A model generated the notes under the pieces. That model had not been told where the DNA came from. It made no database searches and saw only the letters and a list, made by a program, of their open reading frames with translations. From assembly GCF_044324785.1 (NCBI RefSeq), contig NZ_CP172127.1: DNA of 64,000 nucleotides; one strand, given 5' to 3'. Positions 30,570 through 30,581 of the stretch are shown one piece after another (within the stretch, counting starts at the first letter, position 1; each line of letters starts with the position of its first letter). Both the position numbers and the translations under genes were made by a program. This DNA is from Escherichia coli. Lineage in GTDB: Bacteria > Pseudomonadota > Gammaproteobacteria > Enterobacterales > Enterobacteriaceae.

Positions 30570-30581
30570 GGCGGTAGCGTA
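30570..30581 (+). promoter_or_regulatory. ops (operon polarity suppressor) element within a JUMPStart sequence, RfaH-dependent antitermination signal
   Basis: ggcggtagcgta on the coding strand, 11/12 match to the recalled GGCGGTAGCGTG ops consensus, 33 nt upstream of the kpsM ATG. Confidence 0.6.

What the first reader, a model, noticed from the sequence alone, without database searches (positions are those of the whole stretch)
30570..30581. ops/JUMPStart antitermination signal placed 33 nt upstream of kpsM
The 8-nt core GGCGGTAG is exact and the extended element matches 11 of 12 positions, on the coding strand just before kpsM. This implies RfaH-dependent readthrough from region 3 into region 2 and so couples expression of the putative polymerase to RfaH.
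Basis: partly seen in the sequence, partly recalled or inferred. Interest (0 to 1): 0.3.

Follow-up and report, generated by a model that had tools for sequence, protein, structure and literature searches.

The report
Known RfaH loading site before kpsM
This is the well-known ops/JUMPStart signal in the leader of the E. coli group 2 capsule operon, where the anti-terminator RfaH boards RNA polymerase so that transcription continues from the export genes kpsMT into the capsule-synthesis genes. It is real but ordinary.

Summary
GGCGGTAG sits at 30570-30577 (+), and the 12-mer GGCGGTAGCGTA matches 11 of 12 positions of the ops consensus. It is the 3' end of a complete 39-nt JUMPStart element (30543-30581; Rfam RF01707, 58.5 bits against a cut-off of 35, E 7e-11). 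It lies on the non-template strand of the untranslated leader. The first G is 40 nt before the kpsM ATG (30610), and 28 nt separate the 12-mer from the ATG, as published for E. coli K5. The 8-mer alone is not statistically unusual; the full element, its position and its conservation are. The core is invariant in eight E. coli kps leaders whose flanks diverge to 81% identity. The leader occurs in about a third of 5,426 complete E. coli genomes. RfaH dependence of the homologous element has been shown for K5 (Stevens 1997), K1 (rfaH mutants lose capsule) and K2/CFT073 (RfaH ChIP-seq, loss of RNAP downstream in ΔrfaH). The G12-to-A difference is the normal kps form and still binds RfaH. Region 2 here is a rare two-gene, ~30% GC type (21 of 5,426 genomes). 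Its 1169-aa ORF carries a Bcs3-like ribosyltransferase/phosphatase module. Verdict: already known, low interest.

The parts
29830..29910 (+). Approximate position of the region 3 promoter PR3 and its transcription start (inferred start about 29869-29881)
   Evidence: Published distances were mapped by alignment. The CFT073 TSS is 846 nt before kpsM. CFT073 carries a 116/117-bp insertion in the leader, which puts the equivalent point at window ~29881. The K5 TSS is 741 bp before kpsM, which gives window 29869 if K5 has the short leader (not checked). There is a local conservation peak at 29834-29913 (78-80% invariant columns against ~66% for the rest of the leader). The consensus promoter scan is uninformative here (34 hits against 32 expected). 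Inferred, not shown.
29870..30609 (+). Long AT-rich 5' untranslated leader of kpsM (about 730-740 nt; GC 32-40%)
   Evidence: A homologous leader is found in 1,706 of 5,426 complete E. coli genomes with a 1.1-kb query and in 1,939 with a 96-nt query.
30543..30581 (+). JUMPStart element (39 nt), with the Rfam consensus stem at 30550-30554 / 30564-30568
   Evidence: Rfam RF01707, 58.5 bits (cut-off 35), E 7.2e-11, full-length match. The same hit, at 53.6-58.5 bits, lies at the same position in six other E. coli kps leaders. 37 of 39 columns are invariant.
30570..30581 (+). ops element GGCGGTAGCGTA (core GGCGGTAG 30570-30577; predicted pause position U11 = 30580; position 12 = A)
   Evidence: The core is invariant in all 8 kps leaders compared. 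Positions 9-12 are CGTA or CATA in the intact loci. The identical 12-mer and the CATA variant are RfaH-bound in CFT073.
30610..31386 (+). kpsM (region 3; ABC-2 permease, 258 aa)
   Evidence: Pfam ABC2_membrane, E 1.2e-15. 97% identical to CFT073 KpsM. RefSeq places the same start.
31383..32060 (+). kpsT (region 3; ABC ATPase, 225 aa), overlapping the kpsM stop by 4 nt
   Evidence: Pfam ABC_tran, E 6.7e-17.
32247..35756 (+). Region 2 gene 1: 1169-aa multidomain putative capsule polymerase
   Evidence: Residues 424-786 match the H. influenzae type b capsule polymerase Bcs3 (PDB 8a0c/9h50, E 3.9e-28). Weak HAD-phosphatase matches at 450-655. No Pfam family above cut-off. GC is 29-34%. The architecture resembles the >1,100-aa Kdo-transferase plus ribofuranosyltransferase-phosphatase ORFs of the K13/K20/K23-to-K19 set.
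35767..35796 (+). Intrinsic-terminator-like hairpin plus U-run between the two region 2 genes
   Evidence: GAGUCGCAC-UAUG-GUGUGACUC followed by UUUUUUAUAU. ΔG -15.2 kcal/mol, z -4.84, 0 of 200 shuffles fold as well. Function not tested.
35866..36885 (+). Region 2 gene 2 (339-aa ORF from GTG 35866; in-frame ATG at 35875)
   Evidence: Only sub-threshold α/β-hydrolase and TPR matches. Annotated 'hypothetical protein' in RefSeq.
36935..44891 (-). Region 1, convergent: kpsS, kpsC, kpsU (kdsB), kpsD, kpsE, kpsF. It is not downstream of the ops.
   Evidence: ORFs. Pfam Capsule_synth for kpsS and kpsC. RefSeq annotation of the collinear strain GF4.

Best explanation
The element is the ops site, embedded in a full JUMPStart element, of the region 3/region 2 transcription unit of an E. 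coli group 2 (kps) capsule locus. Proposed mechanism: RNA polymerase starts at PR3 about 730-740 nt upstream and transcribes the AT-rich leader. When the ops sequence is exposed on the non-template strand of the transcription bubble, the polymerase pauses around U11 (30580). The non-template strand forms the small G2-C3/G8-C9 hairpin that flips out T6, and RfaH binds it and the polymerase. RfaH then stays on for the whole unit. It excludes NusG, which blocks Rho-dependent termination. It suppresses pausing stimulated by H-NS/StpA filaments on the ~30% GC region 2. Its refolded KOW domain recruits a ribosome to kpsM 28 nt downstream. The result is that transcription reaches the 1169-aa polymerase gene and the gene after it, so capsule synthesis depends on RfaH. 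Shown here: the sequence, its strand and position, family membership by covariance model, conservation, and gene context. Inferred from homologous loci and established RfaH biology: every functional step.
For: The core is exact and the 12-mer matches 11 of 12, on the same strand as kpsM and in the untranslated leader. There is a full-length JUMPStart hit at 58.5 bits, E 7e-11, unique in the window. The same hit sits at the same place in K1 (APEC O1), K2 (CFT073), ST131 and leaders diverged to 81-90%. The core is invariant; JUMPStart is 37/39 invariant against 66% for the bulk of the leader. Distances equal the published ones: 28 nt to kpsM and -40. KpsM is 97% identical to CFT073 KpsM. [quoted passage not shown] The window's exact 12-mer GGCGGTAGCGTA is RfaH-bound at c1882 in CFT073 ΔhnsΔstpA. 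The positions whose substitution abolishes RfaH recruitment (G4, G5, A7, G8), or has the strongest defect in vivo (G5, T6, G8, T11), are all consensus here (PMC5995543). Region 2 is 29-35% GC against 50-60% in the flanks, the type of DNA coated by H-NS. All four downstream genes are co-oriented, with no + strand terminator-like site between kpsT and gene 1.
Against: No experiment exists for this strain or this region 2 type. Position 12 is A, so the TG pause dinucleotide shared by the validated K-12 RfaH targets is absent; pausing at U11 may be weaker. A G12C change removed the pause in vitro, though not RfaH recruitment. Conservation is not specific to ops: the whole block from ~30515 into kpsM is 92-95% invariant, so conservation alone cannot separate ops from the ribosome-binding region. 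AT-rich region 2 contains many promoter-like hexamers, although no more than in shuffles, so some RfaH-independent transcription of the polymerase gene cannot be excluded. rfaH itself is outside the window.
Confidence: 0.9

Rival explanations
1. The ops is functional, but in this particular two-gene region 2 the polymerase gene is transcribed largely from its own internal promoter or promoters. RfaH would then tune expression rather than gate it.
For: Region 2 is ~30% GC with many σ70-like hexamer pairs, for example TTTAAA-18-TATAAT at 32426-32455. The 186-nt kpsT-gene 1 spacer could hold a promoter. A strong terminator-like hairpin after gene 1 suggests gene 2 may need its own start.
Against: Promoter-like hits are no more frequent than in shuffles (34 against 32.2), and none lies in the kpsT-gene 1 spacer on the + strand. 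In K5, K1 and K2 the capsule or region 2 transcription still depends on RfaH. H-NS-coated AT-rich DNA typically silences such internal starts.
Confidence: 0.07
2. The conserved block acts mainly at the RNA level, as a leader structure or sRNA (RyhB) pairing site that controls access to the kpsM ribosome-binding site. The ops match would be secondary.
For: Rfam models JUMPStart as an RNA motif with a 5-bp stem. A 2025 paper predicts RyhB pairing over the ops region of the kpsM leader and reports RyhB-dependent activation of a kpsM-gfp fusion (PMC11988350). Conservation runs continuously from ~30515 to the start codon.
Against: Folding of the 39-mer or of 30520-30612 is no better than shuffles (z +0.85 and -0.02). 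The E. coli copies show no compensatory changes: the stem and loop are nearly invariant in sequence. The RfaH ChIP and ΔrfaH data on the homologous site are direct. An RNA-level role would be additional to, not instead of, RfaH loading.
Confidence: 0.02
3. It is a chance occurrence of an 8-mer with no function.
For: GGCGGTAG occurs 3 times in the window against 1.3 expected, which is not unusual. CFT073 has 34 ops-like sites inside coding regions that do not bind RfaH.
Against: It is embedded in a full JUMPStart element (E 7e-11), lies in an untranslated leader on the non-template strand, is at the published distance from kpsM, and is invariant across divergent kps leaders.
Confidence: 0.01

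Closest known systems
ops/JUMPStart of the E. coli group 2 capsule region 3 leader (K5: Stevens, Clarke & Roberts 1997; K1; K2 strain CFT073: Hustmyer et al. 2022, PMC9765446)
   Same: It is the same locus (between gspM/yghD and kpsM), strand and distance to kpsM (28 nt after the 12-mer; first G at -40). It has the same 39-nt JUMPStart. The sequence from 30535 to 30631 is identical to K1 strain APEC O1. It shares the A at ops position 12.
   Different: Positions 9-10 are CG here and in K1, but CA in CFT073 and ST131. The leader is the short form, lacking a 116/117-bp segment present in CFT073 and ST131. The region 2 it serves is a rare two-gene type (21 of 5,426 genomes).
Consensus ops GGCGGTAGCGTG of the K-12 and CFT073 RfaH regulon (rfaQ/waaQ, wzx/rfb, wza, tssH, c4518; hlyC has GGCGGTAGCATG)
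   Same: Positions 1-11 are identical. All bases needed for RfaH contact and for the non-template-strand hairpin (G2-C9, T6 flipped out) and the pause base T11 are present.
   Different: G12 is A, so the TG pause dinucleotide is missing. The leader upstream of ops is much longer (~700-800 nt from the TSS) than at rfaQ (27 nt) or wzx (67 nt).
JUMPStart RNA motif, Rfam RF01707 (Hobbs & Reeves 1994 'just upstream of many polysaccharide-associated gene starts')
   Same: It is a full-length match above the gathering score, just upstream of a polysaccharide gene cluster. Other E. coli copies, after galF before the O-antigen genes and before wzi of group 1 capsule, have almost the same 39 nt.
   Different: The last base differs: A here, G at the O-antigen copy, C at the wzi copy.

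Membership tests
ops element (RfaH recruitment site) | Core sequence GGCGGTAG, including the bases whose substitution abolishes RfaH recruitment (G4, G5, A7, G8) and T6 | tested here: met
   Exact at 30570-30577. Mutational data are from PMC5995543.
ops element (RfaH recruitment site) | Lies on the non-template (coding-sense) strand of the transcription unit it controls | tested here: met
   It is on the + strand, as are kpsM, kpsT and both region 2 ORFs. The promoter is placed upstream by homology.
ops element (RfaH recruitment site) | Located in the untranslated 5' leader, not inside a translated gene (coding-region ops-like sites do not bind RfaH) | tested here: met
   It lies 28-40 nt before the annotated kpsM ATG at 30610, in a 1,056-bp intergenic region. 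The criterion is from PMC9765446.
ops element (RfaH recruitment site) | Pause-inducing T at position 11 | tested here: met
   T at 30580. T11G is among the strongest defects.
ops element (RfaH recruitment site) | G at position 12 (TG dinucleotide shared by the K-12 targets). This is a preference, not a defining feature. | tested here: not met
   A at 30581. All intact kps leaders examined have A here. ops sites with A12 (kps GGCGGTAGCATA, c1882 GGCGGTAGCGTA) give RfaH ChIP signal in CFT073. G12C removes the U11 pause but not RfaH recruitment in vitro.
ops element (RfaH recruitment site) | RfaH binds there and distal gene expression depends on RfaH and on the element | not testable with these tools
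   Shown only for homologous loci: K5, K1 and K2.
JUMPStart (Rfam RF01707) | Score at or above the family's gathering threshold over the full model | tested here: met
   58.5 bits against 35, model positions 1-38 of 38, E 7.2e-11.
JUMPStart (Rfam RF01707) | Conserved stem-loop in the 5' half supported by base-pair covariation | tested here: inconclusive
   The stem UUGGU/GCCAA (or GCCAG, giving U-A to U-G) can form. The E. coli copies are nearly invariant, so there is no covariation to count. The MFE fold does not favour this stem (z +0.85).
E. coli group 2 capsule (kps) gene cluster | Region 3 (kpsMT) and region 1 (kpsFEDUCS) flank a low-GC serotype-specific region 2; regions 3 and 2 are co-oriented and convergent with region 1 | tested here: met
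   ORFs and domains; GC profile; RefSeq annotation of collinear genomes.

The most novel reading that the evidence does not exclude
The kps-type ops lacks the TG pause dinucleotide (A at position 12). It might rely on the otherwise unexplained 5' half of JUMPStart. The conserved 5-bp stem and 9-nt loop (30550-30568) end exactly 12 nt upstream of the pause base U11. From memory, that is the geometry of a his-type nascent-RNA pause hairpin, so this is a lead and not a test. If so, JUMPStart would be a composite hairpin-plus-ops pause that holds RNA polymerase long enough for scarce RfaH to load. A related possibility is that the strong terminator-like hairpin at 35767-35796 is an RfaH-gated checkpoint setting the ratio of polymerase to the second region 2 protein.
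Probability: 0.1. Interest if true: 0.35.

Novelty: already known. Interest (0 to 1): 0.08.

Why it matters
It confirms that this locus has the standard regulatory wiring of E. coli group 2 capsules. Expression of its rare, uncharacterised region 2 (a Bcs3-like multidomain polymerase and a second unknown protein) should therefore depend on RfaH, as for K1, K2 and K5. That is useful for annotation, and for anyone wanting to express or silence this capsule; rfaH and ops are proposed anti-virulence targets. It adds no new biology.

Tried and rejected
1. Motif counting alone. The 8-mer is not enriched (3 against 1.3 expected), so significance had to come from the covariance-model hit and from conservation.

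2. RNA folding of JUMPStart and of the ops-to-ATG stretch. Neither folds better than shuffles, so I could not support an RNA-structure role.

3. Covariation in the JUMPStart stem. The E. coli copies at kps, galF/O-antigen, wzi and a variant locus are almost identical in sequence, so the test is uninformative. I ran no further search on it.

4. Locating PR3 by consensus. The promoter scan gives no more hits than shuffles. The Xue et al. 2009 paper (PMC2648368) is not held, and Goh 2017 has no PR3 start mapping in its text. PR3 is therefore placed only approximately, from published distances.

5. The second ops-like 12-mer at 37591-37602 (GGCGGTAGCGAG, + strand). I rejected it as functional. It lies antisense inside kpsS, is conserved together with the kpsS coding sequence, and has T11->A. 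The site at 22091 (-) has only the 8-mer and lies within the + strand gsp operon.

6. Naming the region 2 proteins. There are no Pfam or NCBIfam hits above cut-off, and no PDB sequence match for the N-terminal 423 aa or the C-terminal 383 aa of the large ORF. Only the central Bcs3-like module is identified. I judged the large protein-database searches and structure prediction peripheral to this finding and did not run them.

Full report
**What is in the sequence**

At 30570-30577 on the + strand the window reads GGCGGTAG. The 12-mer 30570-30581 is GGCGGTAGCGTA, which is 11 of 12 against the ops consensus GGCGGTAGCGTG, with the mismatch at position 12.

The downstream gene starts at ATG 30610. 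It encodes a 258-aa ABC-2 permease (Pfam ABC2_membrane). RefSeq annotates it with the same start in identical loci, and it is 97% identical to CFT073 KpsM/c3698.

The distance depends on the reference point:
- 28 nt lie between the 12-mer and the ATG, the figure given in the literature ('28 bp upstream of kpsM', PMC8960920).
- The first G is at -40, the value tabulated for the CFT073 kps ops (PMC9765446, Data set S2A).

**Is it more than chance?**

The 8-mer by itself is not. It occurs three times in the window against 1.30 expected, and 17 of 100 shuffles do as well. With at most one mismatch to the 12-mer there are two sites against 0.38 expected.

Three things settle it:
- The motif is the 3' end of a complete 39-nt JUMPStart element. 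Rfam RF01707 matches 30543-30581 (+) over its full length at 58.5 bits (gathering score 35, E 7.2e-11), and this is the only such hit in 64 kb.
- It lies on the sense strand of an untranslated leader. That is the only context in which ops-like sites bound RfaH in CFT073, where the coding-region sites did not.
- It is conserved.

**Conservation**

I aligned the gspM-kpsM intergenic region of the window with seven other E. coli loci: a 100% match, K2 CFT073, K1 APEC O1, an ST131 strain, two leaders only 81% and 90% identical, and one decayed locus with a disrupted kpsM.
- GGCGGTAG is invariant in all eight.
- Positions 9-12 are CGTA or CATA in the intact loci.
- JUMPStart is above threshold at the same position in every one (53.6-58.5 bits).
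- Across six non-redundant intact leaders, 37 of 39 JUMPStart columns are invariant, against 66% for the bulk of the leader and 45% for the promoter-distal part.
- The conserved block runs on through the ribosome-binding region into kpsM, so conservation alone does not single out ops.

A homologous leader was found in 1,706 of 5,426 complete E. coli genomes with a 1.1-kb query, and in 1,939 with a 96-nt query.

**Context**

The window carries a complete group 2 capsule locus next to the gsp type II secretion operon:
- kpsM (30610-31386) and kpsT (31383-32060).
- Two region 2 ORFs on the same strand (32247-35756, 1169 aa; 35866-36885, 339 aa).
- Convergent kpsS, kpsC, kpsU, kpsD, kpsE and kpsF on the - strand (36935-44891).

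GC content falls from 50-60% in the flanks to 32-40% in the leader and 29-35% across region 2.

This region 2 is rare (21 of 5,426 genomes, all at least 99% identical), and both genes are 'hypothetical protein' in RefSeq.
- The large ORF has no Pfam family above threshold.
- Its residues 424-786 match the H. influenzae type b capsule polymerase Bcs3 (E 3.9e-28), with weak HAD-phosphatase signals.
- That is the ribofuranosyltransferase-phosphatase module described for KrkA of E. coli K13 (PMC12887879). It is also described for a set of K types sharing a >1,100-aa ORF that combines a Kdo transferase with this module (PMC13171606).

The N-terminal 423 aa and the C-terminal 383 aa have no detectable sequence relatives in the PDB.

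**Mechanism**

The steps below are established for homologous sites and inferred here.
- Transcription starts at PR3. Published distances (741 bp before kpsM in K5; 846 nt in CFT073, whose leader carries an extra 116/117 bp) both map to about window 29869-29881. This sits inside a local conservation peak.
- After about 700 nt of AT-rich leader, the polymerase exposes ops on the non-template strand and pauses.
- RfaH recognises the small non-template-strand hairpin with T6 flipped out (PMC5995543). All bases needed for that are present, and the window's 12-mer and the consensus 12-mer give the same predicted DNA mini-hairpin.
- RfaH then travels with the polymerase. It excludes NusG and Rho, counters H-NS/StpA-stimulated pausing on AT-rich DNA, and recruits the ribosome (PMC9765446; PMC6391919).

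Direct evidence for the homologous element:
- An rfaH mutant of a K1 UPEC loses capsule.
- In CFT073, RfaH ChIP signal starts at the kps ops and persists through the unit. The ratio of distal (+5.4 kb) to ops-proximal RNAP occupancy in ΔrfaH falls to 0.1-0.34 of the wild-type ratio for the wzx, kps and rfa operons.

**The one sequence departure**

Zuber et al. note that the validated K-12 targets all have TG at positions 11-12. The window has TA. This is not peculiar to the window: every intact kps leader I examined has A12. In CFT073, both the kps ops (GGCGGTAGCATA) and the c1882 ops (GGCGGTAGCGTA, identical to the window) are RfaH-bound. The mismatch is therefore the normal kps form and not a defect.

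**Comparison and novelty**

This is the same element, at the same place, as the ops/JUMPStart described for E. coli K5 in 1997 and re-examined by ChIP-seq in 2022. The window differs in only two ways. It has the short form of the leader, and its ops serves an uncommon two-gene region 2.

I score interest at 0.08 and novelty as 'already known'.

The most novel reading not excluded is that the conserved JUMPStart stem acts as a pause hairpin that compensates for the missing G12. Its 3' end lies 12 nt upstream of the pause base. Three results argue against it: the folding result, the lack of covariation, and the reported RfaH recruitment and pausing with ops elements studied outside a JUMPStart context. 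I give it about 0.1.

**What led nowhere**

- Motif counts alone were not significant.
- RNA folding gave nothing above shuffles.
- Consensus promoter scanning was uninformative.
- Two literature look-ups for the exact PR3 start failed.
- Family searches could not name the region 2 proteins beyond the Bcs3-like module.

Noticed in passing
window 35767-35796 (+): A strong intrinsic-terminator-like hairpin (9-bp stem, 4-nt loop, then UUUUUUAUAU; ΔG -15.2, z -4.8) sits 11 nt after the stop of the 1169-aa region 2 ORF and about 80 nt before the next gene. It could limit expression of the second gene unless RfaH-modified polymerase reads through it.
   Followed up: partly
window 32247-35756 (+) and 35866-36885 (+): Region 2 has only two genes, is present in 21 of 5,426 complete E. 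coli genomes, and both genes are annotated hypothetical. The 1169-aa protein has a central Bcs3/KrkA-like ribosyltransferase-HAD phosphatase module. Its N-terminal 423 aa and C-terminal 383 aa have no sequence match in Pfam or the PDB. The 339-aa protein shows only faint α/β-hydrolase and TPR signals and might be an O-acetyltransferase-like modifier. The K type was not identified.
   Followed up: partly
window 29925-29941, 30321-30337, 30456-30472 (+): The motif AATAATTTC-N4-GAAA occurs three times in the window, all inside the kpsM leader and all on the + strand (expected 0.01). The TTTC/GAAA dyad is kept and the N4 varies in other E. coli leaders. It could be a repeated dyad protein-binding site or small leader hairpins. 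The third copy is part of a hairpin followed by a U-run (30449-30482, ΔG -10.6, z -2.2).
   Followed up: partly
window 30319/30320; L002 774-890: The kpsM leader comes in two lengths. CFT073, an ST131 strain and two divergent leaders carry an extra 116/117 bp at this point, bordered by ~21-nt direct repeats (AAATAATTTCYTGMGAAATTA). The window, APEC O1 (K1) and AMSCJX02 have the short form. This explains the different published leader lengths (741 against 846 nt).
   Followed up: partly
window 37591-37602 (+): A second ops-like 12-mer, GGCGGTAGCGAG, lies antisense inside kpsS (codons ~181-186). It is conserved with the kpsS coding sequence in two other genomes and has T11->A. I judge it a coding coincidence. 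It would be on the non-template strand only for transcription running out of region 2 into kpsS antisense.
   Followed up: yes
L009 1513-1551; L010 1501-1539; L011 1500-1538: Nearly identical JUMPStart copies occur at other E. coli polysaccharide loci: after galF before the first O-antigen glycosyltransferase (ending GCGTG), before wzi of a group 1 capsule locus (GCGTC), and after yghD about 750 bp before an unrelated hypothetical gene (GCATA).
   Followed up: partly
window 10627-10848 (-) and 53823-54059 (-): Rfam matches to C0719 sRNA (294 bits, full length) and to IS102 RNA (64.8 bits).
   Followed up: no
window 45500-64000: The right flank beyond kpsF is an island segment with an Ag43/Cah autotransporter, an MFS transporter, a LysR regulator and a GTPase-family gene. 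Only 94 genomes hold most of it. It differs from the SPI-7-type island that follows kpsF in strain GF4, with collinearity ending at window 46056.
   Followed up: no
window 30610-31386 (+): E. coli KpsM scores only 189.6 bits against the NCBIfam 'KpsM' equivalog model (cut-off 300). This is why RefSeq calls it merely 'ABC transporter permease'.
   Followed up: no
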